Source of the DNA: an uncultured Flavobacteriaceae bacterium | Lineage (GTDB): Bacteria; Bacteroidota; Bacteroidia; Flavobacteriales; Flavobacteriaceae | Assembly: GCA_947489085.1 (NCBI GenBank) | Contig: CANLCJ010000007.1 | Span: 36,467 to 100,466 of the forward strand | Direction: 5' to 3' | Length of the DNA: 64,000 bases | Shown here: piece by piece, positions 18,752 to 60,236 of the stretch | Position numbering within the stretch: position 1 is the stretch's first letter | How the letters are laid out: every line of letters begins with the position of its first letter | Made by a program: the position numbers and the translations under genes | The notes under the pieces: generated by a model | The model's input: the letters and a program-made list of their open reading frames with translations, nothing else | Told to the model about the DNA's origin: nothing | The model's database searches: none

Positions 18752-18768
18752 TATCCTGATATAGCATG
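18752..18768 (-). promoter_or_regulatory. Candidate operator, 10-bp-period direct repeat (CATGCTA-tat-CAGGATA)
   Basis: 65 nt upstream of the GH78 start at 18687; one of a recurring set of CAGGATA sites. Confidence 0.55.
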
Positions 18769-19100
18769 AATGGGGAAACTGCTTCACTATCATCTCTGTT
18801 GTGTATCGTTCTGCCAGCATTACAAAGTAAAGCTCTGTCTGTTATTGGGCTTTTTTTGTTACTGTCTTGCACTCTTATCATTATATCGCACCATATTTGG
18901 CCTATTAAAGTTTGTTTTAAAAAAGCTTTTATTCTTTATAAATTTAAATTTTGCATGGTGCTTTTACATTTTTGCATAAGTGTATAGGAGCCATAATACC
19001 TAGGTTTGCCTTAGTAGATGTGTGCATTAAAGAACGTCTTTTCATTTTTTCCTATTTTCTTAAAATGTGGACTAAATGTATACGAACTCATTTAATAAAG

Positions 19101-19117
19101 TATCCTGCGCTGTGCTG
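19101..19117 (-). promoter_or_regulatory. Candidate operator (CAGCACA-gcg-CAGGATA)
   Basis: 56 nt upstream of the short ORF 18944..19045; same motif family. Confidence 0.45.
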
Positions 19118-19508
19118 TAGTTTAACCCTTTTCTGTATTAAAAACTCTATTACAACTGTGATCGTCTTCATATGCTATTGTAAACCGCACTTTTCAGTTT
19201 TACCATAATGGCATTGCCCTAAAACTGAGGCAATACTAGTTCGTATTTGATATCTCGGCTTCATAACACCATTCTACCCCTTAAAGCAGGTAGAGCTAAC
19301 TGCTATAGTTCAAACATAATTCAATGCTTTCTTTTTATACTCTTGAGCAAAAATTTCGTGTATACGTGTTTTTTTCTACCATACTTGGGTTAAAAAACGC
19401 AACCTTAATTACGCTAATTTTCAATATTTTGCCTTAAACTAGTGAAAAATGATTCAACATATTTATACAAAATTATTAGCCATAAATGCATAAAGCTGTT
19501 ATTATGAA

Positions 19509-19555
19509 AAATGACATTTAATGTTTAATTAAAATTTAAACATTAAATGTCATTT
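19509..19555 (-). terminator. Probable intrinsic terminator after the PL24 gene
   Basis: Perfect 20-bp inverted repeat aaatgacatttaatgtttaa / ttaaacattaaatgtcattt with a 7-nt loop, about 40 nt past the stop codon. Confidence 0.65.
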
Positions 19556-19592
19556 CTAAATACCTCTAAAGGTTCTTATGGTTTAAGGTCGA

Positions 19593-22022
19593 CTATCGTA
19601 TTACCAGTTTGGTATAGGATACTCCTTGTTTATCGTCTGTAATTTTAACCATGTATAACCCCGATTTAAAACGGTCGTTATTTTCTATCTCTAAAACATT
19701 AGAATTGACTGTCTTTTGATATACAATTTTACCTAACATATCGTTTATTACAACAGTTAAGGCTGTAGTACCTCTACGCGTTATCGTAAATTTATTGCTG
19801 GCTGGATTAGGGAATAACAGTACTTGAGATGCATTTGCTTCTGTACCGCTAGTAGATAGAACTCTAATGGATTCCATAATCCATTTAGATCTGTCGTTTA
19901 AACCCGGTGTATGTTCAATACTATTATTTTCGCTATGGGCTAAATATCTGTTTCCGGATCTTGTTCTAAAGCTATAGGTTTCGTCTTCGCTGTTATATAT
20001 AACTGTCCATACTTTATCGGAGTCTGAATTTGGTGCGGAGCGGGTTGTATTTATTATTTCGCCAACTGGATTTCCTGCAAATCTTAATATACCTCTTGAT
20101 GTTTTACTATCTATATTGTAAAAATCTCCAGATCTAACAATTTCCCACTGTTTATCTACTCCTTCTCCAGAAATACTAGCTACAACATCTCCGTCTTCAG
20201 ACTTTAAATACATTCCTGTGCTTACGTTTTTCATTCTATAAATATCTCCTGTTAAATCTGTTAAGTCTCTAGGCTCTACATTTATAGTTGCAGTTGTACT
20301 GATTTGTTCGCCAGTGCTACTGTATGCAATAGCTTCTATTTCGTGTTGCCCTTCTACAGCATCCCAGCTCGCATTAAAAGGCGCTTCGTTGTCTGTTTTT
20401 ATAAGTTCTCCTTCTCTGTAAAACTCTACTCTAGACACTATACCGTTATCTGTATAGGCATCTACAGCTATGGGTATGTTTTGTTCTGCATTAAAAGATT
20501 GATTATTTTCTATTGTTGTAAATGCAACCGTTAAGGGTTGTGGCTCTGCATTTACGTCTAGATCTATAATCTGTAAATACACTGGTTGCGCACTGCCTGA
20601 GCTTCTTTCCATAAGGTAGTAATAAAGTATGCCGTTAGCGATAAACACTCTACCATGATCGAAACTTCTACCGCTGTTATCCTCATACACTCTTCTAAAA
20701 TTATTTGTACCTCCTTTAGCTTTTTCGACAAAAACTTTATTGTTTTCTAAACCTATAATGTAAATGTCGTCTGCAAAGGTATATATTGCTTGGGCTCCAG
20801 AAAATTCGGTTGTTGTTGTAAACTCGGTCTCCCCACCTCTTCTATATGTATGAACAGATTTTGAGACACCATTCTCTCTATCTTCCACACTACTTATTAA
20901 GTGTACATCTTCCCGAGCTGTCACTGTCCAATCGAAACCGCCAACAATATACACTTGGTCTTTTGCTGTTGTTTCCACCAGATCTCCTGGTTCTGTAACT
21001 AGTATTCTATCTGAATCGATTAGAGGCAACTGAAATTCTTCGCCTCTATGGTTTTTCCAACCTGTTAATCCGTCTTGATCGTCTGAATAGGCATAGTAAA
21101 TTCCGTTTTGAAATATGAATTTATCATTATTGTTAGAAGACCTTCTCTGGTAACCAATTCTCATTTTTCCATTAACATATTTTATGTCTCCGTAAAGCCC
21201 CCAATTGAAACTTTGTCCTCTACTTCTCGCATTAAGTATATTAAAGTGCGTGAATCCTGACCATGATGCTGTAGCTGCATCATATTTTGAAAATTTATAT
21301 GCCCCATTATTATTACCACCTTCTCTCATATACATGAATAAATCTCCAGAATCGTTCAAGAAAAACTGTGGATATGTAAGTGCGTTAAAATTACTATAAT
21401 CTTCTCCTCCGTTTAAGCTTAAATGTTTGTAACCGCCTTCACTGTTTTGTACAAATTTATCTAATGTAAACTCTGAATCTGCTATTGTGGCTATATTTTG
21501 TTCTGAATAGGAATATCTAAAATAATCGTTACTTAAACTTCCATCGGATGGTCTTGTTCTGGAATAGGCATGCATGTCATACAATAAATGTATTGTACCA
21601 TCCAAGGGGCTTACGCCTACCGCTATGGTATTATGAGATTCTCCTAACCAAGCTCTGTTTTGAAAACCGTTATGCCTGTGGGGAAATTCTATTGTTGCTG
21701 CTGTTCTTGTGTTTGTATTGTAACGGGTTAACATTACGTGCCTGTCTGTTTTACCGCCTCGATACCAAGTTACAAAAACATACTCATTGTACGTTTTTAT
21801 ACAATCGCCATGTGCAGAAATATTTCTACCAAACACATAATCGTAAGAACTATCGCTTCCATTATCTGCGGCACCAGTACCTACTTTATTACCATTGAAG
21901 TGCAACGCATTGTTGGCGATTAACACTTCTGAAGTTAGCCTTACCTGAGCCAAAACAGAAACATTGATTCCAATTGATATTACAATAAGATGTATGAAAC
22001 GCTTAACGTAATTTTTTTTCAT
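19593..22022 (-). CDS. PL24 ulvan lyase (BNR-repeat beta-propeller) + Ig-like domain + ricin-type module + T9SS C-terminal domain
   Basis: YDYVFGRNISAHGDCIKTY, GESHNTIAVGVSPLDGTIHLLYDMHAY, LTYPQFF, YMREGGNN match the PL24 (LOR_107-type) pattern as recalled; LFPNPA..GLYMVKI..KLVIR T9SS CTD. Confidence 0.85.
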   Translation of the reverse strand: MKKNYVKRFIHLIVISIGINVSVLAQVRLTSEVLIANNALHFNGNKVGTGAADNGSDSSYDYVFGRNISAHGDCIKTYNEYVFVTWYRGGKTDRHVMLTRYNTNTRTAATIEFPHRHNGFQNRAWLGESHNTIAVGVSPLDGTIHLLYDMHAYSRTRPSDGSLSNDYFRYSYSEQNIATIADSEFTLDKFVQNSEGGYKHLSLNGGEDYSNFNALTYPQFFLNDSGDLFMYMREGGNNNGAYKFSKYDAATASWSGFTHFNILNARSRGQSFNWGLYGDIKYVNGKMRIGYQRRSSNNNDKFIFQNGIYYAYSDDQDGLTGWKNHRGEEFQLPLIDSDRILVTEPGDLVETTAKDQVYIVGGFDWTVTAREDVHLISSVEDRENGVSKSVHTYRRGGETEFTTTTEFSGAQAIYTFADDIYIIGLENNKVFVEKAKGGTNNFRRVYEDNSGRSFDHGRVFIANGILYYYLMERSSGSAQPVYLQIIDLDVNAEPQPLTVAFTTIENNQSFNAEQNIPIAVDAYTDNGIVSRVEFYREGELIKTDNEAPFNASWDAVEGQHEIEAIAYSSTGEQISTTATINVEPRDLTDLTGDIYRMKNVSTGMYLKSEDGDVVASISGEGVDKQWEIVRSGDFYNIDSKTSRGILRFAGNPVGEIINTTRSAPNSDSDKVWTVIYNSEDETYSFRTRSGNRYLAHSENNSIEHTPGLNDRSKWIMESIRVLSTSGTEANASQVLLFPNPASNKFTITRRGTTALTVVINDMLGKIVYQKTVNSNVLEIENNDRFKSGLYMVKITDDKQGVSYTKLVIR

Positions 22023-22386
22023 AATCGATAGAATTAAATTTTATATACTCTTAAAAAGCCTTCAAAAAAAGGCGTATTTGGACTTTCCATAAAACTTATA
22101 AAAGGTAATGCTAGTCGAAAACGAAACGAGAGAGGTTAATGAGTTGCTGTTATTGAACCTCAGTAACTTTTATTGCTCCAAGTTTAATTTATCTCACCAA
22201 ATATTATCAACAAGATAATTGAAGCCTTTACGAGTTATGTTTCTTTTACGATTTAAAAAGATATATAGAGGGTTAATATCTTGTAAGCAGGTTTTTCTTT
22301 TTCAAAAGAGTTTATAGTTTAGTCGGTGTTTTAAGCCGTTGTAAAAACGACGATGTAGTAAAATTACGCAAAACAGTCTTTTACAG

Positions 22387-22403
22387 CATCCTGTTGTATC
22401 CTG
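22387..22403 (-). promoter_or_regulatory. Candidate operator (CAGGATA-caa-CAGGATG)
   Basis: Near-perfect direct repeat with 10-bp period, 365 nt upstream of the PL24 start. Confidence 0.55.
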
Positions 22404-22532
22404 ATAACTAAAGCAATAACGTTTTTCATTCTGAATTTAAATGGTAAAAAAACTATTTATTGAATAACTTTTAAATTAATTATAAGCTTCAACAAATAGT
22501 TTTTTCATTTAATTATGCAACGTTGCTAACAC

Positions 22533-25197: not shown

Positions 25198-25231
25198 AAA
25201 AGTCTCTTAGAAATACTTCTAAGAGACTTTT
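25198..25231 (-). terminator. Intrinsic terminator
   Basis: Perfect 15-bp stem aaaagtctcttagaa / ttctaagagactttt, 4-nt loop, U-tract on the - strand, 24 nt after the stop of 25255..27357. Confidence 0.85.
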
Positions 25232-27357: not shown

Positions 27358-27449
27358 AATGTACTTTATTTAGTTAGTTTAGGTATTCTACTCTCAGAAT
27401 ATTTAAGAGTAGAATTCTGACAAAACTAACACTTACATTACGTGTTACC

Positions 27450-27466
27450 TATCCTGCTCTATCATG
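27450..27466 (-). promoter_or_regulatory. Candidate operator (CATGATA-gag-CAGGATA)
   Basis: 93 nt upstream of the start at 27357; a possible Bacteroidota -7 box (TAGTTTTG, 27421-27428) lies between site and start. Confidence 0.55.
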
Positions 27467-35732: not shown

Positions 35733-35737
35733 TACAA

Positions 35738-41603: not shown

Positions 41604-41660
41604 GAATTGTTTTTTTGATAAATTATAAAGGCTAAAAATAGTTTTTTTTATCGGGGTTCT

Positions 41661-41677
41661 TATCCTGAACAGTCTTG
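41661..41677 (-). promoter_or_regulatory. Candidate operator (CAAGACT-gtt-CAGGATA)
   Basis: 58 nt upstream of the GH43 start. Confidence 0.5.
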
Positions 41678-46876: not shown

Positions 46877-46942
46877 TTTTAAATGTATACTTTTATTTGC
46901 GCATTTTAAGCTACTAAAATTACTTGTAACGTCATTACCAAT

Positions 46943-46959
46943 CATCCTGTATTGTCCTG
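46943..46959 (-). promoter_or_regulatory. Candidate operator (CAGGACA-ata-CAGGATG)
   Basis: 10-bp-period repeat 67 nt upstream of the corrected GH78 start. Confidence 0.55.
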
Positions 46960-47478
46960 TAAATGGGTTAAAATGTATTCTAAAATTAGTTGCAATCAAA
47001 AACACAACTTTCACCTTCTCAAAAACCTGTTTATCAAACAGTTGAAGCCCAAACATAATTAAGTGCTATACTTTATAGTTTTAATAGTCCGAATAAAAGA
47101 AGTGATTTAAATTTAGAATACATCTCAACTAGCCCCTTCAAACTATTTTAAATTCTGTTTAAAAGCCCGATTATTAGCCACAAGAAACACATCTTTTTAA
47201 AACCTTAACTACTACTATACCAGACTAGTAAACTAAAGCGCAGGATAGAAAATTTTAAAAGGCTAATTACATTACAGCCACTAAACTGTTAATTTAAATT
47301 AACAACACACTAAGATAAAAGGCTACAGCAATCGAATACTCCCATTAATTGTGGTTACTTTTCCCTCTGGTTTTTAAGTTGTTTACTCTAAATTAACCTA
47401 ACCACTAAATTAATATAATCATAAAAAAACAATTTTTACAATAGCAAAACTATGTTCTACTTTGCTGTTTTCGAAGTA

Positions 47479-47509
47479 AAAAAAGCTGCCTTATAAGAGC
47501 AGCTTTTTT
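47479..47509. terminator. Bidirectional terminator-like hairpin with no obvious upstream gene
   Basis: aaaaaagctgc / gcagctttttt stem in the divergent intergenic region. Confidence 0.55.
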
Positions 47510-47772: not shown

Positions 47773-47789
47773 CAGGTTGGTACAGGATA
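47773..47789 (+). promoter_or_regulatory. Candidate operator (CAGGTTG-gta-CAGGATA)
   Basis: 96 nt upstream of the start at 47885; the motif flips to the + strand together with the gene. Confidence 0.55.
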
Positions 47790-47884
47790 ATTAATTGTGT
47801 AAGCCGTTTTATTTTTAAGAAAAAAGCGCTTTTTAATTTTTACCAACTATTCCATAATTAATACATTAATTTAAATTATTTAAA

Positions 47885-51422: not shown

Positions 51423-51437
51423 GATTACTGTAAACGT

Positions 51438-52916
51438 TTAAGTGATGTTGTTTTTTGATGTTTTCATTGGCTTACCAAATAAATCTAATATGGGTTTTCC
51501 TTTACCATCTGGGGTGGTATAAAAGGGCCTGCCTTCTATTTCGTAATGGGTTTGAGGATGGATCCCTAAGGCACTATAAATAGATTGGTGTACTTGGTCT
51601 ATCACTACTTTATTTTCTATAGAAACACAAGGCCTTTCGTCTGCTGTTTTACCATAAACGAGTCCTTTTTTAACACCTCCACCCCACATTAAAATAGAAC
51701 CTCCATCGGTAAAATGGCGGTGCATACCGTAGTGCCTAATATGCTCTATTTTATCTGGTTGTCTTCTGGCTTGGTCTCTAACTTCTTCACCTGGCCTGCC
51801 TTCCATAATAGCATCTCTACTAAATTCACTCGCTAAAATAACCAAGGTTCTATCCAAATGGCCAGATTCGTCTAAATCTTTTATTAACTGCGCTACAGGT
51901 CTGTCTATTAAGGCTTTCATTTGTTTGGCTCTTGTATGCCCGTTTGCATGCGTATCCCAACCTAAAAAGGGTTCGTACTCGGTAGATACGCTAATAAAAC
52001 GCCCTCCGTTTTGTGCTAAACGTTTAGCGAGCAAACACCCTAATCCAAATCGTCCTGTATTATAAGTATCATACACGTCTTTCGGTTCTTGAGACAAATC
52101 AAACACCTTAGCTTCTGGCGAATTTAAAAGTCGATACGATTGTTCCATTGAGCGCATTAGCGATTCGCGTTGGTAATCGCTTGCTTGTTCCATAACCTCA
52201 CTTTTATTCGCTAATGCTTTGTACAATTTATAACGTGCCTCAAAACGTTTTAAAGACATGCCTTCTGGAGGCCGTACACTGTCTAAACCTTCTGAGGGGT
52301 CTGGAATTAAAAACGGGCCATATTCACTGCCTAAAAACCCTGCAGTGTGAAAGGCTTTTAACTCTTCGGCTTCCCCCATGGTAAAACGCTGGCCGATAGA
52401 TATAAATGGTGGTATTACAGGGTTGGCTGGGCCTAGTTCTTTCGCAATCCATGCGCCAATATGAGGGGCTTGTACCGATTGTGGCGGCTCATAACAGGTA
52501 TGCCAGTGAAATTGATGCCTGGTATGCAGTATAAATCCTAAATCGGCTGCTTTGTAAGATCTAATAATTGCACCTTTATCCATTACACCTCCAATAGATT
52601 GTAAGCCTTCAGAAAACTCTAGTCCATCAACTACTGTGGGATGTTTTGGAAATGTACTTAATACCCTATTGGTTTCTAAACCTTTTTCAAAAGGGGCATA
52701 GGCTTTAGGGTCGAAGGTTTCGGTATGCGCCATTCCGCCCGCCATCCATAATAAAATAACGCTATCGGCAGTTGCGGCTCTTTTTTGCACTTCTGGAGAA
52801 CAGGAGCTTAAAAAACTGGCTAAAGGTAGTGTTGTAGCGGAGGCTGCAATACTGGCTGCAGACATTTTTTTTATAAATTCTCTACGTGAATTGCTCTTAT
52901 TATTTTTATAGGTCAT
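51438..52916 (-). CDS. DUF1501 family protein (alkaline phosphatase/sulfatase-like clan), Tat lipoprotein, copy A
   Basis: SRREFIKK, FLSSC, LLWMAGGMAHTETFDPK, PHIGAWIA.ELG, FGLGCLLAKRL..G.RFI, WDTH, LIKDL..SG.LDRTLV...SEFSR, GGGVK.G.VYGKT. Confidence 0.85.
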   Translation of the reverse strand: MTYKNNKSNSRREFIKKMSAASIAASATTLPLASFLSSCSPEVQKRAATADSVILLWMAGGMAHTETFDPKAYAPFEKGLETNRVLSTFPKHPTVVDGLEFSEGLQSIGGVMDKGAIIRSYKAADLGFILHTRHQFHWHTCYEPPQSVQAPHIGAWIAKELGPANPVIPPFISIGQRFTMGEAEELKAFHTAGFLGSEYGPFLIPDPSEGLDSVRPPEGMSLKRFEARYKLYKALANKSEVMEQASDYQRESLMRSMEQSYRLLNSPEAKVFDLSQEPKDVYDTYNTGRFGLGCLLAKRLAQNGGRFISVSTEYEPFLGWDTHANGHTRAKQMKALIDRPVAQLIKDLDESGHLDRTLVILASEFSRDAIMEGRPGEEVRDQARRQPDKIEHIRHYGMHRHFTDGGSILMWGGGVKKGLVYGKTADERPCVSIENKVVIDQVHQSIYSALGIHPQTHYEIEGRPFYTTPDGKGKPILDLFGKPMKTSKNNIT

Positions 52917-52934
52917 AACTAAAAAACGGTCTCA

Positions 52935-55772
52935 TTAGTTTATAAATTGAAATTCGGGCGACATTAATACCGACCAAAATACGTCTTGTACTTGTGCTGT
53001 CGAAGGTTGCTCCCCTAAAGACGCCATAACAATGTTTTGCTCTTCTTTAGATGGTGCTCTTCCCAGTAATTCTTGATAAAGTGTATCTACAATTAAACGG
53101 CTATCGTTCCCATATGTGTTAAGCCATTTTTTTGCGCCTTGCTTTAAAATGCCATTAAAAAAACCGCCATTGGTTAATTCCAAGGCTTGTAATAACGTGG
53201 CTTGTTCTTCTCGCGTTGTGGTTACAATTTCTCTATTTGGACGTCCAAGAGCTTTTAAGAACGGGTGCTGTTTTACCAAACTAGCTCTGGCAAATGTTTT
53301 TTGATGGTCTTTAAATGTAAAGTCTAATAATTTTGCCCAGTTACTGGTTCTATAGTTCTTTACTTTTTTCCATCTTTTGGCTTCAAAATCCAAATCTGCC
53401 CAATTGGCTTTGGGTGCTACATCTGTACTTAGCCATGTTTCGTCGGAGTAGAGGTTAAATACGCTATCATCTTTAAAAGCAACTTTCATGGCAAACAAAA
53501 TACTCGCTGGATTGCCTATTTTTCCTTTATTATCTCCCTCTACAGCAATACAATTAGTGCCTTTGGTTAGAAGGTTTGCAACGTTGTATTTCCCAACATC
53601 TGTCCAATTATCGCCTGTACCTACAGGTTTACCGTTAATAAACAGTTTGTAGGCATCGTCTACCGAAATTAAAATAGAGGCGTCTTGTATGTTCTCTTTT
53701 TTAAGTTGAAATGTTTTTCTAAAGTAACGCTTTCCTGGTAGTGGTAATACGGTATTGGTTAGGTCTTTTTGATGGTGCCAAATGCGTTGGGCTGGCATTT
53801 TTTCTTCGTTAGGATTGTAAGCCACTGCAACATAAACAGGTGCTATAACTTGACTTATAGCATCTGAAAACTGCTCTGCACTTAAGCGCCTTAAAACAGG
53901 CCCTTTAAACACATAATCTTGCTTTATAGCTTCTGCTGTTTTATAACTTACAGTAGGCAACTGGTAGGCCTTAGAAGTCATAATACGTTTTATCAAATGC
54001 TTTAAATCTGTACCAGAATCGATAAAATCTGAAGCCAACCAATCTAACAATTCGGCATTCCAAGGGGTGTTATCCATTTCATCTACGGGCTCTATAATAC
54101 CTCTTCCTATTAGCCGTTCCCATATACGGTTTGTTATGGTTCTGTATAAACGCCCGTTCTCTTTACTGGTCATTACTTCAGAGAGTTTTAACAAGCGTTC
54201 TTTTAACGTTTCGCCTTCTACGCTTCCTAATTCTGGATACAGAAAGTTAACTTTAGCAATCTTACCTATAGGCTTATCACATCGGTTAAGTTCTAATGGT
54301 TTTTCTGCAAAAATTGAAGCAAAACCGTAAGCTTGATCTAAGGTTAAATTGCTAATAAAACTATTATGACAAGATGCACATTTTACATTAACGCCCATTA
54401 AGGATTGTCCTATATTTTGAGCGGCTTGCATTTCGGTGCGCTGGCTGGAGTTTACAACGCCACGCCATTGGATGCCTTTTATAAAACCTTCCGATGCTTT
54501 ACTCGGGTTCATCAATTCGCTCACTACTTGATCATAAGATTTATTTTGCTTTAAGGTATTGTATAACCATGTTGTAATTTGAAATCGCCCTCGGGTTATA
54601 AACCCTGTTCCGCTATAATCATTACGCAATAAATCGTTCCAAAAACTTAGCCAATTTTGTGTGTAATTTTCAGAATCGTTCAACAATTCATCAATTAAAA
54701 GTTCGCGTTTTTTTGGGTTTGTGCTTGCTATAAAAGCATTTACTGCTGTAGGTTTTGGCAATAGTCCCACAACATCCATATAAGCTCTTTTTATAAACTT
54801 TCTATCATCCACTACAGCGTTCCAGTCTACTTTTTTATCTTTAAAGTAAACGCTTACAATTTTATCTACAGGATGCGTTTCTTCTGTTACGGTTGGTAGT
54901 GCTGGTTGTGTTAAAGCCAATGGGGCTTCTGGAAATACTTTAACGGCTTTGTCTGACCAATGTGCGCCATCTTCTATCCATAATTTTATAAGTGCAATTT
55001 CATCAGGTGTGAGTAATTTGCCTTTAGTAGGCATTACTTTTTTATCATTTGCTGGAAGAATAATGCGCTTGTAAATTTCACTTTCTTCTGGCTGTCCTGG
55101 CACAACTGCTAATCCTGATGTTCCCCCTTTAAAAACACCTTCTTTATGTTCTAAAACTAACCCCCCTTTTTGTTTGTTTTCACTGTGGCATTGGTAGCAT
55201 TTATGTGCAAAAAGCCCTCGTACTTCTAGGTTTAATTTGTCTTTTTGTAGTTCTGATAATTCTGAAGCACCTTTAAGCTCTGTAAGCAATGCGCTAGATT
55301 CTAAATTACTATAGCCTTTTTCATTTCCAGGTAATATTTCGGTTAAATAATCTTCACCATGGGTTAAATTAGCGCCTAAGTGGCCTGCTATGCTTAGCAG
55401 TACAACGGTAGTAACTAGCATAAAACGGTATGCTTTTAAATTTAAGGGGGCCTTTTTCAATGTACGACTTAAAATTATAGCAGTAAGAATGGCTAAAACA
55501 GCTGTAGCGATTCCTGTATATTGGTGATTGTCTACCAAATCTCCAGAATACTCGTCTTGGGTTTTTAAAAACCAACCAAAAAGCGCGGCACATGCAGCAA
55601 CACCAGCCCCTATATATACCATCCAATTAATGCCTTCTCTAAGGCCTTTGCGTTTACCGCCTAGGGTAAGTAATTCTAATACTAATGCTACAACTAAAAG
55701 ACCTATGGGAAAATGCACCAATAGCGGATGCAAGCGTCCGAAAAATTGTAGTATCCAGTTTGTGTTTTCCAT
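52935..55772 (-). CDS. Membrane-anchored planctomycete-type cytochrome c / DUF1549 / DUF1553 protein with CBM67-like insert, copy A
   Basis: N-terminal TM region (HPLLVHFPIG, GHLGANLTHG; DUF2231-like); CYQCH..KGGL.L (PSCyt1); HPVD..V..; FIKRAYMDVVGLLP; KCASCH; NRIWERLIGRGIIEPVDE; RRLSAEQFSDAI; LQALELTN. Confidence 0.85.
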   Translation of the reverse strand: MENTNWILQFFGRLHPLLVHFPIGLLVVALVLELLTLGGKRKGLREGINWMVYIGAGVAACAALFGWFLKTQDEYSGDLVDNHQYTGIATAVLAILTAIILSRTLKKAPLNLKAYRFMLVTTVVLLSIAGHLGANLTHGEDYLTEILPGNEKGYSNLESSALLTELKGASELSELQKDKLNLEVRGLFAHKCYQCHSENKQKGGLVLEHKEGVFKGGTSGLAVVPGQPEESEIYKRIILPANDKKVMPTKGKLLTPDEIALIKLWIEDGAHWSDKAVKVFPEAPLALTQPALPTVTEETHPVDKIVSVYFKDKKVDWNAVVDDRKFIKRAYMDVVGLLPKPTAVNAFIASTNPKKRELLIDELLNDSENYTQNWLSFWNDLLRNDYSGTGFITRGRFQITTWLYNTLKQNKSYDQVVSELMNPSKASEGFIKGIQWRGVVNSSQRTEMQAAQNIGQSLMGVNVKCASCHNSFISNLTLDQAYGFASIFAEKPLELNRCDKPIGKIAKVNFLYPELGSVEGETLKERLLKLSEVMTSKENGRLYRTITNRIWERLIGRGIIEPVDEMDNTPWNAELLDWLASDFIDSGTDLKHLIKRIMTSKAYQLPTVSYKTAEAIKQDYVFKGPVLRRLSAEQFSDAISQVIAPVYVAVAYNPNEEKMPAQRIWHHQKDLTNTVLPLPGKRYFRKTFQLKKENIQDASILISVDDAYKLFINGKPVGTGDNWTDVGKYNVANLLTKGTNCIAVEGDNKGKIGNPASILFAMKVAFKDDSVFNLYSDETWLSTDVAPKANWADLDFEAKRWKKVKNYRTSNWAKLLDFTFKDHQKTFARASLVKQHPFLKALGRPNREIVTTTREEQATLLQALELTNGGFFNGILKQGAKKWLNTYGNDSRLIVDTLYQELLGRAPSKEEQNIVMASLGEQPSTAQVQDVFWSVLMSPEFQFIN

Positions 55773-55828
55773 GTTATATTTTAATCAAAAAAAGTAATTA
55801 TAAAATTATTTTAAATGTGTTCTAAGAT

Positions 55829-55845
55829 TGTCCTGTGGTGTCGCA
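55829..55845 (-). promoter_or_regulatory. Weak candidate operator (TGCGACA-cca-CAGGACA)
   Basis: 57 nt upstream of the start at 55772; degenerate. Confidence 0.3.
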
Positions 55846-55865
55846 TAGCTTCATTACAACTTATG

Positions 55866-57314
55866 TTAAGTGGTCTGCATTGGTTTTCCAAACAAATCTA
55901 AAATTGGTTTTCCTTTTCCGTCTGGTGTGGTATAAAATGGACGGCCTTCTATTTCGTAATGGGTTTGCGCATCTATGCCTAGAGCGTGATATACCGACTG
56001 ATGAACTTGATCTATAACTACAGGTTTTTCTATAGAGGAGCAGGGCCTTTCATCGGCTGTTTTACCGTATACTAATCCTTTTTCTACGCCTCCACCCCAC
56101 ATTAAAATAGAACTGCCATCTGTAAAATGACGGTGCATGCCATAATATTTTTCATCTTCTATAATATCGGGTTGATCGACTTGATTTTTAACAAGTTCGC
56201 CCGGTCGTCCTTCCATTATAGCATCTCTACTAAATTCGCTTGCCAGTATAATTAATGTTTTATCTAAATGCCCTGTTTCGTCTAAATCTTTAATTAATTG
56301 AGAAACGGGTCTGTCTATCAGTGCTTTCATTTTTTTAGCTCTAATGTGTCCATTTTCGTGCGTATCCCAGCCTAAAAATGGTTCGTATTCTGTAGATACG
56401 CTAATAAATCTACCACCGTTCATTGCCAAACGTTTTGCTAATAAACAGCCCAAACCAAAGCGCCCTGTGTTGTAGGTATCGTAAACGTCTTTTGGTTCTT
56501 GCGATAAATCGAACACCTTGGCTTCTGGAGAGTTTAGTAAGCGGTAAGATTGTTCCATAGAACGCATTAAAGATTCGCGCTGATAATTACTCCCCTTTTC
56601 CATGATTTCACTTTTATTCACCAATTCTTTGTAGAGTTTATAGCGCGACTCAAATCGTTTTAAAGACATGCCTTTAGGCGGTCGTACACTATCTAAGCCA
56701 CTAGAGGGATCGGGAATTAAAAATGGCCCATACTCTGTACCTAGAAACCCTGCTGAATGAAAGGCTTTTAGCTCTTCGGCTTCTCCCATGGTAAAACGCT
56801 GCCCTATAGAAATAAAAGGGGGAATTACAGGGTTTACTGGCCCTAATTCTTTAGCTATCCACGCCCCTATATGTGGTGCTTGCACCGATTGTGGGGGTTC
56901 GTAGCAGGTATGCCAATGGTACTGGTGTCTGGTGTGTAAAATATGACCCAAATCGGCAGATTTATAGGAGCGGATTATAGCGCCTTTATCCATAACGCTC
57001 CCAATTCCCTCTAATCCTTGGGAAAACTCTAAACCATCTACCACTGTTGGTATTTTAGGAAACGTACTTAAAATACGCTTGCTTTCTACACCTTTTTCGT
57101 AAGGCACATAGGCTTTAGGATCGAATGTTTCTGTATGTGCCATACCGCCAGCCATCCAAAGTAAAATAACAGTATCTGCTGTGGCTGCTCTTTTTTGTAC
57201 TTCTGGGGTACAAGAACTTAAAAAACTTGATATAGAAATAGTTGTTGTAGAGGCCGCTATACTGGCAGCAGTCATTTTTTTTATAAATTCTCTACGTGAG
57301 TTTTGTGTTTCCAT
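55866..57314 (-). CDS. DUF1501 family protein, Tat lipoprotein, copy B
   Basis: Same motifs as copy A; highly similar sequence. Confidence 0.85.
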   Translation of the reverse strand: METQNSRREFIKKMTAASIAASTTTISISSFLSSCTPEVQKRAATADTVILLWMAGGMAHTETFDPKAYVPYEKGVESKRILSTFPKIPTVVDGLEFSQGLEGIGSVMDKGAIIRSYKSADLGHILHTRHQYHWHTCYEPPQSVQAPHIGAWIAKELGPVNPVIPPFISIGQRFTMGEAEELKAFHSAGFLGTEYGPFLIPDPSSGLDSVRPPKGMSLKRFESRYKLYKELVNKSEIMEKGSNYQRESLMRSMEQSYRLLNSPEAKVFDLSQEPKDVYDTYNTGRFGLGCLLAKRLAMNGGRFISVSTEYEPFLGWDTHENGHIRAKKMKALIDRPVSQLIKDLDETGHLDKTLIILASEFSRDAIMEGRPGELVKNQVDQPDIIEDEKYYGMHRHFTDGSSILMWGGGVEKGLVYGKTADERPCSSIEKPVVIDQVHQSVYHALGIDAQTHYEIEGRPFYTTPDGKGKPILDLFGKPMQTT

Positions 57315-57352
57315 GTTCTTTATCTTTAAAGCGTATTTCTAATTTTTTAGAA

Positions 57353-60187
57353 TTAATCAATAAATTGAAATTCTGGTGACATTAAAACAGCCCAAAACAA
57401 ATCTTGTAATTGTGCTTTTTCTGGATTTGTCCCTAAAACGTTAAGCATTACTTCGCGTTCTTCTTTCGAGGGCTTACGGCCTAATGCGTTTCGATACAAA
57501 TCGCTAACCATTTTTCCTGTATCTGTGGCGTATCTGTCTAACCAAAGTCGCGCGCCTTCTTCTAAAACACTATCAAAAAACGCTCCATTTGTTAGCTCTA
57601 AAGCTTGTAATAATGTTGCTTGTTCTTCTCTAGAAGTGGTTACTATTTCCCTACTTGGGCGCCCAAGTGCTTTCATAAACGGGTGTTGTTTTACCAAACT
57701 AGCACGCGCAAATTTTTCGTCTTGGTCTTTAAATGTAAAATTGAGCAATTTGCCCCAATTGTTAAAGTTACGTGTGCCATAGTCTCTCACCTCTAGCCAA
57801 TTTGAATCGTTAAAATGAACCGCTGTCCAACCCGATTCTGGTAATGCATCAACACTTTTCCATGTGGTGTCTGAGTTCATTTCTAAAATAGCTCCAGATG
57901 CTTGTTCTATTTTTAAAGCAAATAGAATCCCTGCTGGATTTGCTATGGTACCATCGTTCTCTCCTAGCACGGCTATTGTATTTTTTCCAACAACCAAATA
58001 GGAACTTATGTCTATTTTACCAACGTCTTTCCAATTGTTATTTTCTAAAACTTTTTGTCCGTTTATAAAAAGCTGGTACGAGTGGTCTACCGAAATTAGA
58101 GCTTTAGCACTCACTATGTTTAACGATGGTAGGTGAAAAGACTTTCTAAAATAGCGTTTACCAGGTTCTGGCAACACGACCCTGTTAAATTTAATTTCTT
58201 TGTGCCATATGCGTTTGGCTTTTATATTTTCGCCATTAGGATTAAAGGCAACATCTGGATACATTGGTGCTATAACTTGGCTTACAGCATCAGAGAATTG
58301 CTCTGCACTTAAACGGCGTGATATAGGCCCTTTGAATACGTAATTAACCTTGGTGTCTTCTATTTTATCATAATTAATCATGGGTTGTTGGTAGGCTTTA
58401 GAAGTGACAATACGCTTTATCAAATGCTTTAAATCTGAGCCATTATCCACAAAATCTGCCGCTAACCAATCTAGAACCTCTGCATCCCAAGGGGCATTAT
58501 CCATCTCGTCTAGTGGCATAACAATACCACGACCCATTAAACGGCTCCAAAATCTATTGGCCAGCGTACGGTATAGCCTGCCATTATCTCTTTGTACCAT
58601 AACTTCAGACAGTTTTAATAAACGGTCTTTTATAGTTTTACCTTCTACGCTTCCTAACTCAGGGTATAAAAAGCTGGCTTTTGCCATTTTGCCTATAGGT
58701 TTATCGCACCTGTTTAGCTCTAGTATTGAATCTGAAAAAATAGTGGCGAAACCATAGGCTTGAGCTAGGGTAAGATTGCTAATAAAACTATTATGACAAG
58801 AGGCGCATTTTACATTTACGCCCATTAAAGATTGCCCTATGTTTTGTGCGGCTTGCATTTCGGTGCGTTGGCTGGCATTTACAACGCCACGCCATTGTAC
58901 GCCTCTAATAAAACCTTTAGAGCCTTTAACTGGGTTTACCAATTCGCGTACTATATCGTCGTACGATTTATTTGTTATTAGCGCATTGTACAACCAGTTG
59001 GTAATTGGACGTTTTCCTCCTGCGCTACTGTAATCGTTTCGTAATAGATCATTCCAGAATGTAAGCCAATGTTGTGTATAATTTTTATTGTCGCTTAGTA
59101 GTTTATCTACTAATGCTTCTCGTTTATGTTCGTTTTTATCATTGATGAAGGCCTCAACTACATCAACATCTGGCAACAAACCAATAATATCCATGTGGAT
59201 GCGCCTTACAAACGTTCTATCGTCTACAACCTCTTGCCAGTCTACGTTGTTTTTATCAAAATAAGCATCTACTAACTTATCTATAGGATGGGTTTCTTTG
59301 GTTGCTGTGGGCAATGTTGGTGTTAGTAAAGCCAATGGGGCTTCTGGAAATACTTTAACGGCTTTGTCTGACCAATGCGCACCATCTTCTATCCATAATT
59401 TTATAAGCGCAATTTCATCGGGCGTTAATAATTTGCCCTTGGTAGGCATTACTTTTTTATCGTTTGCTGGTAAAATAACGCGCTTGTAAATTTCACTTTC
59501 TTCTGGTTGTCCCGGCACAACTGCTAATCCTGATGTTCCGCCTTTAAAAACACCTTCTTTATGTTCTAGAACCAACCCACCTTTTTGTTTGTTTTCACTA
59601 TGGCATTGGTAACATTTATGTGCAAAAAGGCCTCGTACTTCTAGGTTTAATTTGTCTTTTTGCAGTTCTGATAATTCTGAAGCACCTTGAAGTTCTGTAA
59701 GCAATGCGCTAGATTCTAAATTACTATAGCCTTTTTCATTTCCAGGTAATACTTCAGTTAAATAGTCTTCACCATGGGTTAAATTAGCACCTAAGTGGCC
59801 TGCTATACTTAACAGAACTACTGTAGCAACCAGCATAAAACGGTACGCTTTTAAATTTAGGATGTTCTTCTTTAAACTTTTTCTTAAAATTACAGCGGTA
59901 ATAAGGGCCAAAACAGCTGTAGCGATTCCTGTGTATTGGTGATTGTCTACCAAATCTCCAGAATACTCATCTTGGGTTTTTAAAAACCAACCAAAAAGCG
60001 CAGCACATACAGCAACACCAGACCCTATGTACACCATCCAATTAATGCCTTCTCTAAGGCCTTTGCGTTTACCGCTTAGGGTAAGTAGTTCTAAGACTAA
60101 AGCCACAACTAAAAGACCTATTGGAAAATGTACCAATAGCGGATGTAAGCGTCCGAAAAATTGTAATACCCAATTTGTAGTTTCCAT
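57353..60187 (-). CDS. Membrane-anchored planctomycete-type cytochrome c / DUF1549 / DUF1553 protein with CBM67-like insert, copy B
   Basis: Same architecture as copy A: HPLLVHFPIG, CYQCH, CASCH, NRFWSRLMGRG, RRLSAEQFSDA, insert KRYFRKSF..SVDHSYQLFING..GKNTIAV..NPAGILFAL. Confidence 0.85.
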   Translation of the reverse strand: METTNWVLQFFGRLHPLLVHFPIGLLVVALVLELLTLSGKRKGLREGINWMVYIGSGVAVCAALFGWFLKTQDEYSGDLVDNHQYTGIATAVLALITAVILRKSLKKNILNLKAYRFMLVATVVLLSIAGHLGANLTHGEDYLTEVLPGNEKGYSNLESSALLTELQGASELSELQKDKLNLEVRGLFAHKCYQCHSENKQKGGLVLEHKEGVFKGGTSGLAVVPGQPEESEIYKRVILPANDKKVMPTKGKLLTPDEIALIKLWIEDGAHWSDKAVKVFPEAPLALLTPTLPTATKETHPIDKLVDAYFDKNNVDWQEVVDDRTFVRRIHMDIIGLLPDVDVVEAFINDKNEHKREALVDKLLSDNKNYTQHWLTFWNDLLRNDYSSAGGKRPITNWLYNALITNKSYDDIVRELVNPVKGSKGFIRGVQWRGVVNASQRTEMQAAQNIGQSLMGVNVKCASCHNSFISNLTLAQAYGFATIFSDSILELNRCDKPIGKMAKASFLYPELGSVEGKTIKDRLLKLSEVMVQRDNGRLYRTLANRFWSRLMGRGIVMPLDEMDNAPWDAEVLDWLAADFVDNGSDLKHLIKRIVTSKAYQQPMINYDKIEDTKVNYVFKGPISRRLSAEQFSDAVSQVIAPMYPDVAFNPNGENIKAKRIWHKEIKFNRVVLPEPGKRYFRKSFHLPSLNIVSAKALISVDHSYQLFINGQKVLENNNWKDVGKIDISSYLVVGKNTIAVLGENDGTIANPAGILFALKIEQASGAILEMNSDTTWKSVDALPESGWTAVHFNDSNWLEVRDYGTRNFNNWGKLLNFTFKDQDEKFARASLVKQHPFMKALGRPSREIVTTSREEQATLLQALELTNGAFFDSVLEEGARLWLDRYATDTGKMVSDLYRNALGRKPSKEEREVMLNVLGTNPEKAQLQDLFWAVLMSPEFQFID

Positions 60188-60229
60188 ACTATTTTATCGT
60201 TTATCCTTAACGTTTTTTAAAATTAAAGT

Positions 60230-60236
60230 TATCCTG
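60230..60236 (-). promoter_or_regulatory. Candidate operator half-site CAGGATA
   Basis: In the 60-nt gap between rhaT and the cytochrome gene, 43 nt upstream of the start at 60187. Confidence 0.4.

What the first reader, a model, noticed from the sequence alone, without database searches (positions are those of the whole stretch)
18752..60236. Recurrent CAGGATA direct repeat with 10-bp period: candidate operator of an ulvan/rhamnose regulon
Seen: exact CAGGATA occurs in intergenic DNA at 18752, 19101, 22397, 27450, 41661, 47241, 47783 and 60230, with variants at 46943/46953 and 55829. It is nearly always oriented with the downstream gene, flipping to + at 47783, and usually lies 43-96 nt from the start codon. 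Most sites have a second half-site exactly 10 bp away (CATGCTA, CAGCACA, CAGGATG, CATGATA, CAAGACT, CAGGACA, CAGGTTG). A rough hand estimate gives under one chance hit in ~6-7 kb of AT-rich intergenic DNA. Inference: binding site of a regulator not encoded in this window. It links GH78s, lyases, GH43 and the cytochrome cassette into one regulon. I do not recognise the motif.
Basis: partly seen in the sequence, partly recalled or inferred. Interest (0 to 1): 0.72.

Follow-up and report, generated by a model that had tools for sequence, protein, structure and literature searches.

The report
Rhamnose/ulvan regulon activator box
The repeated CAGGATA word is a real regulatory DNA site, conserved across about 20 genera of marine flavobacteria, that sits where the upstream (-33) promoter signal would normally be in front of ulvan-degrading and rhamnose-utilising genes and is most likely bound by a rhamnose-sensing GntR-type regulator encoded outside this window.

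Summary
CAGGATA is the most over-represented 7-mer in the window's 7.4 kb of intergenic DNA (8 found, 0.51 expected). The unit is an 8-bp box repeated at exactly 10 bp: CAGGAYAG-ta-CAGGATAS.

A matrix trained only on sites from other genomes recovers the window's sites. Across the window plus 76 related loci (1.65 Mb) it gives 222 intergenic and 32 coding hits; shuffled matrices give 2.3 and 34. Of the intergenic hits, 221 point at the downstream gene.

The proximal box ends 20 nt before a Bacteroidetes -7 box (TAnnTTTG). The pair therefore spans about -49 to -33, the geometry of a class II activator site rather than an operator.

Targets are GH78 rhamnosidases, ulvan lyases, GH2/GH3/GH5/GH43, susC, the PSCyt/DUF1501 cassette, and xylose and L-rhamnose catabolic operons.

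No regulator is encoded in the window. Elsewhere, an AraR-like GntR regulator with a sugar-binding domain always lies near the sites. In three genera it is divergent from a box-bearing rhamnose operon with no hybrid two-component system (HTCS) nearby, so it is the best candidate; the ulvan-locus (PUL) HTCS comes second.

I found no published description. The binding protein and the direction of control are inferred, not shown.

The parts
27421..27466 (-). Promoter module before ulvan lyase 25255-27357. Distal box CATGATA (27460-27466), proximal box CAGGATA (27450-27456), -7 box TAGTTTTG (27421-27428).
   Evidence: 23.1 bits with the matrix trained on foreign sites. Exact TAnnTTTG 21 nt after the box; 92 nt to the ATG.
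22359..22403 (-). Promoter module before ulvan lyase 19593-22022. Distal CAGGATA (22397-22403), proximal CAGGATG (22387-22393), -7-like TAATTTTA (22359-22366). A leader of about 330 nt follows.
   Evidence: 21.2 bits; 0 mismatches to the 17-mer consensus; -7 box at spacer 20. Orthologous lyase promoters carry the box in 46 cases.
41633..41677 (-). Promoter module before GH43 39813-41603 and the downstream sulfatase, unknown gene and 3-keto-disaccharide-hydrolase-like gene. Boxes CAAGACT / CAGGATA; -7-like TATTTTTA (41633-41640).
   Evidence: 16.2 bits; spacer 20; 57 nt to the ATG.
19073..19117 (-). Orphan promoter module. Boxes CAGCACA / CAGGATA; -7-like TACATTTA (19073-19080). It precedes the remnant (ATG at 19045) of a decayed TAT-signal protein gene.
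   Evidence: 14.8 bits. blastx shows residues 1-25 and 33-104 of the 638-aa family, whose intact members carry the box in 9 loci.
46915..46959 (-). Promoter module before the third GH78 (true start 46876). Boxes CAGGACA (46953-46959) / CAGGATG (46943-46949); -7-like TAATTTTA (46915-46922).
   Evidence: 13.2 bits; spacer 20. The corrected start codon gives a lipoprotein signal peptide and brings the Pfam domain offset into line with the other two GH78s.
55801..55845 (-). Promoter module before PSCyt 52935-55772, DUF1501 and the NHL propeller. Boxes TGCGACA / CAGGACA; -7-like TAATTTTA (55801-55808).
   Evidence: 10.8 bits; spacer 20; 56 nt to the ATG. The orthologous operon in L077 has a 17.9-bit box.
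18724..18768 (-). Promoter module before the GH78-GH78-sulfatase operon (15877-18687 onward). Boxes CATGCTA / CAGGATA; -7 variant GAAATTGC (18724-18731; TAnnTTGY type).
   Evidence: Only 7.6 bits in the window because the distal box has drifted, but it is positionally orthologous to the box found in 51 other loci with the same nAnnTTGC element.
47773..47817 (+). Promoter module before the PL28-like lipoprotein 47885-48796. Boxes CAGGTTG / CAGGATA; -7-like TATTTTTA (47810-47817).
   Evidence: 6.6 bits, but 2 mismatches to the 17-mer consensus; -7 box at spacer 20; 95 nt to the ATG. The gene is a distant relative of the ulvan lyase in PDB 6D2C.
47231..47247 (+). Doubtful site: CAGGATA with a poor distal half (AACTAAA), no good -7 box, and no gene within 637 nt.
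   Evidence: 7.9 bits; the -7-like element has 2 mismatches. It may be chance or a decayed promoter. A terminator-like hairpin lies 235 nt downstream (47482-47506).
60230..60246 (-). Doubtful site: a single CAGGATA in the 60-nt gap between rhaT and PSCyt 57353-60187.
   Evidence: -0.7 bits; no distal box and no -7 box. The only support is the strong box at the equivalent place in L077.

Best explanation
The tandem box CAGGAYAG-ta-CAGGATAS is the DNA-binding site of a dimeric winged-helix transcription factor. The factor activates sigma-A promoters that lack a -33 element.

The proximal box occupies about -39 to -33 and the distal box about -49 to -43. The two protomers would therefore sit head-to-tail on one face of the helix, next to or touching RNA polymerase. 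This is class II activation, as at pho boxes.

The most likely binding protein is the AraR-like regulator found in or beside these loci in other genomes: an N-terminal GntR winged helix fused to a periplasmic-binding-protein-type sugar-binding domain. It would sense L-rhamnose or a close derivative released from ulvan. It would switch on rhamnose and xylose catabolism, rhaT, rhaM, GH78 rhamnosidases, ulvan lyases, other glycosidases, sulfatases, susCD and the PSCyt/DUF1501 cassette. It is encoded outside this window.

Shown here: the motif, its conservation, its orientation, its fixed distance to the -7 box, its target genes and its genomic association with the regulator gene. Inferred: the position relative to the transcription start, activation rather than repression, the identity of the protein, and the effector.
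For: Enrichment:
- Top 7-mer in the window's intergenic DNA, 8 found against 0.51 expected.
- The 17-mer consensus hits 6 times against 0.63 expected.

Independent recovery:
- A matrix built only from 51 GH78-upstream sites in other genomes finds the window's boxes before other genes: 5 sites of at least 12 bits against 0.57 in simulations.

Across 1.65 Mb (window plus 76 loci):
- 222 intergenic and 32 coding hits, against 2.3 and 33.7 for column-shuffled matrices.
- 221 of 222 intergenic hits point to the downstream gene; the median distance to the ATG is 63 nt.
- No hits in the five non-Flavobacteriaceae loci.

Repeat structure:
- 167 sites before non-GH78 genes give CAGGAYAGtaCAGGATAS. The distal box converges on the proximal one although the training matrix favoured CGAGACA there.

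Geometry:
- A TAnnTTTG-like box starts exactly 20 nt after the proximal box in 106 of 221 sites, and at 19-21 nt in 126.
- That box lies at -12 to -5 in Flavobacterium transcription-start maps (PMC9723704).

Regulator:
- The only transcription factors seen near the sites are the GntR-PBP gene and an HTCS.
- In an Arenibacter-like contig, Maribacter ulvicola and Aquimarina gracilis, the GntR-PBP orthologue (54-56% identity) is divergent from an L-rhamnose operon (rhaEW above the NCBIfam cut-off, rhaI-type isomerase, FGGY kinase).
- In those three loci a 15-18.5-bit box with a -7 box points into that operon, further boxes precede susC and GH78 genes, and no HTCS lies within 10 kb.
- An HTCS homologue with a DNA-binding domain judged by eye to be about 85% identical, in a non-ulvan Flavobacterium locus, has no box nearby.
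- The regulator's N-terminal domain best matches the B. subtilis AraR DNA-binding domain, PDB 4EGY.
Against: - AraR and most sugar-responsive GntR regulators are repressors that bind palindromes. This motif is a direct repeat with no dyad symmetry.
- No box precedes the GntR-PBP gene itself in ulvan loci. It has a different conserved upstream element.
- In ulvan loci the GntR-PBP and the HTCS are almost always neighbours, so context there cannot separate them. In Zobellia russellii boxes flank the HTCS with no GntR-PBP within 10 kb.
- Predicted HTCS-controlled promoters in Bacteroides share the same 19-21-nt distance to the -7 box.
- No transcription-start, expression or binding data exist for any of these promoters. 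No RNA run holds the source sequence.
- The loci were fetched through PUL genes, so genome-wide specificity was not measured.
Confidence: 0.45

Rival explanations
1. [quoted passage not shown] It would sense ulvan oligosaccharides in the periplasm and activate all the locus's promoters.
For: - An HTCS with the full architecture (Reg_prop, Y_Y_Y, HisKA, HATPase, REC, HTH_18) is conserved in ulvan loci of many genera.
- Boxes flank it in Zobellia russellii with no GntR-PBP in view.
- HTCSs are the classical activators of these loci.
- In Bacteroides the proximal unit of predicted HTCS direct repeats ends 19-21 nt before TAnnTTTG, the same distance as here: BT0367 20; BT2818 19; BT4114, BT4116 and BT4108 21.
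Against: - All 16 predicted Bacteroides HTCS motifs, and AraC-type RhaR motifs, have a period of about 21 bp with 12-16-bp units (PMC3878776; PMC3870299). Here the period is 10 bp, and there is no further copy 21 bp upstream.
- Two AraC-type domains cannot sit 10 bp apart, and the two helix-turn-helix motifs of one domain are not expected to read the same heptamer.
- Boxes occur with the rhamnose operon in three genera with no HTCS within 10 kb.
- A close HTCS homologue in Flavobacterium pectinovorum has no box at its susC promoter.
Confidence: 0.2
2. The GntR-PBP regulator binds the boxes but acts as a repressor, as AraR does. The boxes would then be true operators that block polymerase access to the -33 region until rhamnose releases the protein.
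For: - The closest characterised relative by sequence is the repressor AraR.
- The only marine PUL regulator characterised in the papers searched, AusR, is a GntR repressor with paired operators 3 bp apart near the -7 box (PMC7641319).
- A site at -49 to -33 could occlude sigma region 4.
Against: - A 221:1 orientation bias and a one-nucleotide-sharp spacing to the -7 box are not required for occlusion. AusR operators lie at variable distances: overlapping the box, 32 nt away or 125 nt away.
- The promoters carry ATAS where TTTG is expected, so they look dependent on an activator.
- The motif is not palindromic.
Confidence: 0.15
3. The boxes are bound by another tandem-binding winged-helix activator that was not in view, such as an OmpR/PhoB-type response regulator or a SARP/OmpR-like regulator. 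These are listed among regulator types in polysaccharide utilisation loci.
For: Seven- to eight-bp direct repeats at a 10-11-bp period that replace the upstream promoter element are the textbook architecture of pho boxes and SARP sites (my own knowledge). SARP-OmpR regulators are reported in PULs (PMC7641319). Only about 22 kb per genome was examined.
Against: A phmmer search with PhoB over all 926 proteins of the loci found only the HTCS receiver domain. By-eye inspection of the N-terminal 40 residues and lengths of the remaining protein clusters showed no further regulator, but they were not domain-scanned. No such gene lies next to the box-bearing rhamnose operons.
Confidence: 0.15
4. CAGGATA is the -35-type element of an alternative (ECF) sigma factor rather than a transcription-factor site.
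For: Strict orientation and fixed spacing to a downstream element would fit. One metagenomic locus (L085) has a 17-bit box about 190 nt upstream of an ECF sigma gene.
Against: - The downstream element is the sigma-A -7 box TAnnTTTG, not an ECF-type CGT box.
- The second, equally conserved box 10 bp upstream has no role in sigma recognition.
- The Maribacter susC representative examined shows no obvious N-terminal signalling extension in its first ~70 residues (read by eye, not domain-scanned).
- No sigma/anti-sigma pair was seen among the proteins of the GH78-anchored ulvan loci (by-eye review).
Confidence: 0.03
5. Chance recurrence of a short word, with no function.
For: Five of the 13 exact copies are in coding DNA at the chance rate. 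Two listed sites (47241, 60230) look like isolated heptamers.
Against: About 100-fold intergenic enrichment over shuffled matrices, conservation at orthologous promoters across about 20 genera, 221:1 orientation and fixed spacing.
Confidence: 0.01

Closest known systems
Predicted HTCS binding sites in Bacteroides polysaccharide utilisation loci (Ravcheev et al. 2013, PMC3878776)
   Same: Direct repeats lie immediately upstream of a sigma-A -7 box. The proximal unit ends 19-21 nt before TAnnTTTG. There is one site per operon across the locus, and the regulator is encoded in the locus.
   Different: The period there is about 21 bp with 12-16-bp units, matching AraC-type domains. Here the period is 10 bp with 8-bp units and no 21-bp partner. 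No CAGGAT-containing site appears in their alignments.
Pho box / PhoB and other OmpR-family class II sites; SARP heptamer repeats (my own knowledge, not tested here)
   Same: Two 7-bp direct repeats at a 10-11-bp period substitute for the upstream promoter element. They are strictly oriented and bound head-to-tail by winged-helix domains that contact sigma region 4.
   Different: No OmpR- or SARP-type gene was found near the sites. The promoter is the Bacteroidetes -33/-7 type.
Bacillus subtilis AraR (GntR winged helix plus LacI/GalR-type sugar-binding domain)
   Same: It has the same domain architecture as the candidate regulator, and its DNA-binding domain is the best solved-structure match (4EGY). 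It is a sugar-responsive regulator of glycoside hydrolases plus monosaccharide catabolism.
   Different: AraR is a repressor that binds palindromic operators (my own knowledge). Here the site is a direct repeat at an activator position.
AusR operators of the alginate utilisation system in Zobellia galactanivorans (PMC7641319)
   Same: It is a GntR-family regulator encoded in a marine flavobacterial locus. Paired sites 3 bp apart lie in the promoters of many genes of the locus, and the motif was found together with the -7 box.
   Different: AusR belongs to the FadR subfamily. Its operators are palindromic (TKGTN2-3ACMA), overlap the -7 box or lie at variable distances, and repression has been demonstrated.
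Non-orthologous rhamnose regulators RhaR/RhaS (AraC, DeoR and LacI families; Rodionova et al. 2013, PMC3870299)
   Same: They control rhamnose catabolism together with upstream rhamnoside hydrolysis. The DeoR-type RhaR motifs are direct repeats with a 10-11-bp period.
   Different: No GntR-family RhaR, and no flavobacterial regulon, is described there (the term 'Flavobacter' has 0 occurrences). DeoR-type regulators are repressors with different sequences.
BguR motif of laminarin loci in marine Bacteroidota (bioRxiv 10.64898/2026.01.10.698779)
   Same: It is a conserved motif found by comparing intergenic regions of one type of polysaccharide utilisation locus across marine flavobacteria.
   Different: The regulator differs (membrane-spanning, GerE-type helix-turn-helix), the substrate differs, and the site is reported only before the first structural gene.

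Membership tests
Bacteroidetes sigma-A promoter | -7 box TAnnTTTG about 5-12 nt upstream of the transcription start | tested here: met
   A TAnnTTTG-like box (at most 1 mismatch) lies 19-21 nt after the proximal box in 126 of 221 sites, and in 7 of 10 window sites. GH78 promoters use the TAnnTTGY variant described in PMC9723704. Transcription starts themselves were not mapped.
Bacteroidetes sigma-A promoter | -33 element TTTG about 19 nt upstream of the -7 box | tested here: not met
   The slot is occupied by the last bases of the proximal box (ATAS; the final base is G in 40% and C in 44%). This is consistent with dependence on an activator.
Class II activator site (overlapping or replacing the upstream promoter element) | Fixed phase and orientation relative to the core promoter, centred near -41 | tested here: met
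   A sharp spacing peak at 20 nt (106 sites; 14 at 19 nt; 6 at 21 nt) and 221:1 orientation. The position of -49 to -33 follows if the -7 box is at -12 to -5.
Class II activator site | Transcription depends on the bound factor | not testable with these tools
   No expression data; no RNA run contains the source sequence.
HTCS (AraC-type) binding site | Direct repeat with a period of about 21 bp and 12-16-bp units | tested here: not met
   The period is 10 bp. The fraction of sites with a further box at -20, -21 or -31 is 0-2%.
HTCS (AraC-type) binding site | Cognate HTCS encoded in the same locus | tested here: inconclusive
   Met in ulvan loci of other genera. Not met in the window or at the rhamnose loci L119-L121.
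GntR-family operator | Dyad-symmetric NyGTNxACNy core | tested here: not met
   The consensus CAGGAYAGtaCAGGATAS is a direct repeat. The central GTAC is only partly conserved and the flanks are not symmetric.
GntR-family operator | About 17 bp bound by two winged-helix domains, with the regulator gene adjacent to regulated genes | tested here: met
   The conserved core is 17-18 bp. The GntR-PBP gene is next to box-bearing promoters in L118-L121 and in about 18 ulvan loci.
OmpR/PhoB-type tandem site | 7-bp direct repeats at a 10-11-bp period | tested here: met
OmpR/PhoB-type tandem site | Winged-helix response regulator encoded with the regulon | tested here: not met
   A phmmer search with PhoB finds only the HTCS receiver domain among 926 proteins of the loci. 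The view is limited to about 22 kb per genome.
ECF sigma promoter | -10 element of the CGT type and a sigma/anti-sigma pair in the locus | tested here: not met
   The downstream element is TAnnTTTG. No sigma/anti-sigma pair was seen among the proteins of the GH78-anchored ulvan loci (by-eye review). The Maribacter susC representative shows no obvious N-terminal signalling extension in its first ~70 residues (by eye, not domain-scanned).

The most novel reading that the evidence does not exclude
An AraR-like GntR regulator with a sugar-binding domain is the previously unrecognised L-rhamnose regulator of marine Flavobacteriaceae. It would be a further non-orthologous RhaR family.

Unlike its repressor relatives, it would bind head-to-tail to a 10-bp-period direct repeat and activate transcription from the -33 position. 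A released monosaccharide would then be the master signal for whole ulvan utilisation loci, including susCD, secreted lyases and a PSCyt/DUF1501 cassette of unknown function. The locus's HTCS would act through other sites or other signals.
Probability: 0.4. Interest if true: 0.7.

Novelty: new member of a known kind. Interest (0 to 1): 0.6.

Why it matters
Ulvan from green-tide algae is a major marine carbon source. Its enzymology is well worked out, but I found no description of how these loci are regulated in the papers searched. AusR for alginate was presented in 2020 as the first regulatory model for any marine polysaccharide utilisation locus.

A compact, highly specific promoter code shared by about 20 genera has several uses:
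- It lets one read operon structure and regulon membership directly from sequence. That draws uncharacterised genes into the ulvan/rhamnose response: the PSCyt/DUF1501/NHL cassette, a 288-aa secreted protein, a 638-aa TAT-signal protein and PL28-like lipoproteins.
- It gives a defined probe for testing which regulator, GntR-PBP or HTCS, controls the locus and which sugar is the signal.
- It offers a rhamnose- or ulvan-inducible promoter part for flavobacterial genetics and for biosensors of algal biomass breakdown.

Tried and rejected
- **Source contig.** Looking up the window's own terminal proteins to extend the contig found nothing on record. Only a 1.8-kb metagenomic contig holds rhaM, so the regulator in the source genome could not be reached.
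- **RNA evidence.** Only DNA metagenomes hold the sequence, at about 50% of sampled words, so no transcription-start or induction data exist. I made no further attempts on relatives.
- **Rfam.** No match anywhere in the window. The sigma-70 and terminator scan is uninformative for Bacteroidetes promoters.
- **Second enriched word.** TAGAATAC/GTATTCTA was considered as a second operator. It is specific to this window (6 of 13 intergenic copies across all loci), with no consistent orientation, so I dropped it.
- **Element upstream of the GntR-PBP gene** (TGTTAAAAAAyTTTTAGTTACCCTATTTnAGATTTTTA). It occurs once per locus and nowhere else, so it is not a regulon motif.
- **HTCS as the binding protein.** This was my first choice from context and from the shared distance to the -7 box. 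I demoted it after the 10-bp versus 21-bp mismatch, the box-free Flavobacterium homologue and the HTCS-free rhamnose loci.
- **First reading of the conserved TTG** downstream of GH78 sites as the -33 element, which would place the site at about -66. I rejected this once all 221 sites showed TAnnTTTG at that position.
- **ECF sigma and repeat-element explanations.** Rejected; flanks outside the box and the -7 box are not conserved.
- **Box inside the lyase coding sequence at 25924** (9.0 bits). This is at the chance rate for coding DNA.

Full report
**What the window is.** Pfam annotation of all 31 long ORFs and the two truncated end ORFs shows a segment of an ulvan utilisation locus from a low-GC (36%) flavobacterium. 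It contains:
- GH106, PL8, GH2 and six sulfatases.
- Three GH78 rhamnosidases.
- Three BNR_4 / beta-trefoil ulvan lyases with type IX secretion tails.
- rhaM, two GH3, GH5 and GH43.
- A PL28 lyase and a distant PL28-like lipoprotein (PDB 6D2C relative).
- Two PSCyt-DUF1501 pairs, an NHL propeller and rhaT.

The window has no susC/susD and no transcription factor. The closest GH78 relatives are from Hyunsoonleella and Algibacter (up to 93% identity). The source genome itself is not in the collections.

**The observation.** Exact CAGGATA occurs 13 times in the window. A second-order Markov model expects 0.51 there. In an unbiased ranking of all 8,192 7-mers it comes first (p = 7.6e-8).

Every stated partner heptamer 10 bp upstream is present. 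The 17-mer CAGGAYASNNCAGGAYR with up to 2 mismatches hits six times against 0.63 expected, always in promoter DNA. Two listed sites (47241, 60230) are isolated heptamers and are doubtful on window evidence alone.

**Conservation elsewhere.** I fetched 76 loci encoding relatives of the GH78 at 15877-18687. In 51 of them a tandem box lies 60-130 nt upstream of the orthologous gene. The genera include Algibacter, Hyunsoonleella, Winogradskyella, Polaribacter, Psychroserpens, Seonamhaeicola, Tamlana, Olleya, Lutibacter, Cellulophaga, Aquimarina and Maribacter.

A 19-column matrix built only from those foreign sites, scanned over the window, ranks these positions first (bits):

| Site | Score |
|---|---|
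| 27450 | 23.1 |
| 22387 | 21.2 |
| 41661 | 16.2 |
| 19101 | 14.8 |
| 46943 | 13.2 |
| 55829 | 10.8 |

All lie before genes other than the one used for training. Five sites reach 12 bits, against 0.57 in Markov simulations.

Over the window plus all 76 loci (1.65 Mb, of which 122 kb is intergenic by a greedy ORF call), the matrix gives 222 intergenic and 32 coding hits of at least 10 bits. Twenty column-shuffled matrices give on average 2.3 and 33.7. So coding hits are at the chance rate and intergenic hits are about 100-fold enriched. The five gammaproteobacterial and planctomycete loci have none.

**Anatomy.** The 167 sites before non-GH78 genes give C-A-G-G-A-Y-A-G-t-a-C-A-G-G-A-T-A-S. This is an 8-bp unit repeated at exactly 10 bp. 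The distal unit converges on the proximal sequence even though the training matrix preferred CGAGACA there, so the repeat is not an artefact of the matrix. No further copies occur at -20, -21 or -31, or on the opposite strand.

Of the 222 intergenic sites, 221 point toward the downstream gene. The median distance from the proximal box to the ATG is 63 nt.

Aligning all sites shows one more conserved element, TAnnTTTG. It starts exactly 20 nt after the proximal box in 106 of 221 sites, at 19 nt in 14 and at 21 nt in 6. This is the Bacteroidetes sigma-A -7 box, which lies at -12 to -5 in a Flavobacterium transcription-start map (PMC9723704). GH78 promoters use the TAnnTTGY variant described in the same paper.

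On that basis the proximal box covers about -39 to -33 and the distal box about -49 to -43. The bases ATAS stand where the -33 TTTG would be. In the window, seven of ten sites have such a box at the right distance.

**Regulon.** Genes directly downstream of sites, with site counts:
- GH78: 54.
- BNR_4 ulvan lyases: 46.
- A 288-aa secreted protein with a type IX secretion tail: 28.
- GH2: 24.
- A 638-aa TAT-signal protein: 9.
- GH5: 8.
- GH3.
- susC: all 4 full-length genes in view.
- In Polaribacter, an operon that looks like xylB, xylA and a sugar porter (names assigned by eye from the N-terminal sequences, not domain-scanned).

For the cytochrome cassette I fetched 38 metagenomic relatives of the PSCyt gene. 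The closest, L077 (69% identity), has the operon PSCyt-DUF1501-NHL-GH78 preceded by a 17.9-bit box 46 nt from the ATG. L084 has a 24.5-bit box about 200 nt upstream. More distant relatives in other lineages have none. The cassette is therefore a plausible regulon member, although the window's own sites there are moderate (55829) or poor (60230).

**Which protein?** Within about 22 kb around the GH78 genes, the only regulators are two proteins that usually sit side by side at the end of the locus. One is a 346-aa protein with an N-terminal GntR winged helix and a Peripla_BP_3-type C-terminal domain. The other is an HTCS.

I first favoured the HTCS. Re-reading the alignments of predicted HTCS sites in Bacteroides showed that their proximal unit also ends 19-21 nt before TAnnTTTG: BT0367, BT2818, BT4108, BT4114, BT4116 and BT4119. 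So the geometry is that of known activator-controlled promoters of such loci.

Three results then moved the weight to the GntR-type protein:
1. Predicted HTCS and AraC-type motifs have a period of about 21 bp with 12-16-bp units. The present 10-bp period fits two winged-helix domains, not AraC-type domains.
2. A Flavobacterium pectinovorum HTCS homologue, with a DNA-binding domain judged by eye to be about 85% identical, has no box anywhere within 10 kb, including its susC promoter.
3. Orthologues of the GntR-type protein (54-56% identity) in an Arenibacter-like contig, Maribacter ulvicola and Aquimarina gracilis are transcribed divergently from an L-rhamnose catabolic operon. The operon holds bifunctional rhamnulose-1-phosphate aldolase/dehydrogenase above the NCBIfam cut-off, an RhaI-type isomerase and an FGGY kinase. 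The divergent region holds a 15-18.5-bit box with a -7 box at +20, pointing into that operon. Further boxes precede the neighbouring susC and GH78 genes, and no HTCS lies within 10 kb.

The regulator's DNA-binding domain is most similar to that of B. subtilis AraR among solved structures. In Wenyingzhuangia the order is GntR-PBP, box, susC. A paralogue heads the box-preceded xylB operon in one Polaribacter.

Points against the GntR-type protein. Context cannot separate the two regulators inside ulvan loci. Zobellia russellii has boxes beside the HTCS with no GntR-PBP in view. AraR-type proteins are repressors of palindromic operators.

**Activator or repressor?** This is inference only. Three features are what contact with RNA polymerase requires and what simple occlusion does not: a 221:1 orientation bias, a one-nucleotide-sharp distance to the -7 box, and the absence of a -33 consensus. 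By contrast, the operators of the flavobacterial repressor AusR lie at variable distances. I put activation at roughly 3:1 over repression.

**Prior descriptions.** Full-text searches on ulvan loci, Formosa agariphila PUL H, marine flavobacterial regulators and rhamnose regulons found no description of this motif or of ulvan-locus regulation. The rhamnose-regulon survey covers Bacteroidales but not Flavobacteriia and lists AraC, DeoR and LacI regulators only. CAGGAT does not occur in the published Bacteroides site alignments.

**Verdict.** The site is a real, widely conserved, promoter-embedded tandem box of an ulvan/rhamnose/xylose regulon. It is a new member of a familiar kind of element. 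The binding protein (GntR-PBP favoured over HTCS) and the direction of control are still to be shown experimentally.

Noticed in passing
window 12674-13119: The 446-nt 'intergenic' gap is a pseudogene of a GH43-like protein. blastx recovers only residues about 1-83 and 266-322 of the 323-aa family that is intact at this position in other genomes.
   Followed up: yes
window 18688-19045: Remnant of a 638-aa TAT-signal protein gene (residues 1-25 and 33-104 only), left behind its still-intact box-bearing promoter at 19073-19117. The orphan promoter may now read into the GH78 operon.
   Followed up: yes
window 44003-47056: The mechanical ORF start at 47056 is too far upstream. The likely start is ATG 46876 (MKFMLNKISVAFLLSLVIAVSSC, a lipoprotein signal), which places the 46943/46953 box in promoter DNA.
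   Followed up: yes
window 27383, 27761, 27948, 34783, 43962, 47114: The 8-mer TAGAATAC/GTATTCTA occurs 6 times in intergenic DNA against 0.35 expected, three times about 25 nt before a start codon. It is nearly specific to this genome (6 of 13 intergenic copies across all 77 sequences) and has no consistent orientation. It remains unexplained.
   Followed up: partly
window 22023-22358: An unusually long leader of about 330 nt lies between the strong 22387 promoter and the lyase ATG at 22022. It has no protein remnant, no Rfam match, and a weak terminator-like hairpin at 22058-22073 just before the ATG. It could be an attenuator or a small transcript.
   Followed up: partly
window 47482-47506: A symmetric terminator-like hairpin (AAAGCTGCC-TTATAAGA-GCAGCTTT, flanked by A and T runs) lies in the middle of the 828-nt divergent region, 235 nt downstream of the doubtful 47241 box.
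   Followed up: no
L003 19517, L008 19084, L043 18723, L063 18537 and 13 other loci: A 38-nt element, TGTTAAAAAAyTTTTAGTTACCCTATTTnAGATTTTT, is almost invariant upstream of the GntR-PBP regulator gene across genera and occurs once per locus. It may be the gene's own promoter plus an autoregulatory or HTCS site.
   Followed up: partly
window 50325-60187; L077 4001-10830: The PSCyt (DUF1549/DUF1553 cytochrome-like) plus DUF1501 pair is duplicated in tandem in the window and followed by an NHL propeller. In L077 a single copy forms an operon with the NHL propeller and a GH78. Its function in ulvan or rhamnose use is unknown.
   Followed up: partly
GH78-upstream sites in L001-L069 (for example L002 9864-9920): The spacer between the box and the -7 element of GH78 promoters carries a conserved T5-6 N3-4 A6-8 tract (GTTTTTnnnnAAAAAAA) that is absent from the other box-bearing promoters. 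It may be a bend or a second protein's site.
   Followed up: no
L085 9313-9331: In a 44%-GC metagenomic Bacteroidetes contig, a 17-bit box lies about 190 nt upstream of an ECF sigma factor gene, next to a PSCyt/DUF1501 pair. This is a single case and may be chance.
   Followed up: partly
L116 7893-8132, 9768-10000, 23193-23384: The intergenic regions of the Flavobacterium pectinovorum locus are filled with repeats of the types GCAGATTT...AAATCTGC and CACGAATTCGTG / AACTTTG (REP-like elements).
   Followed up: no
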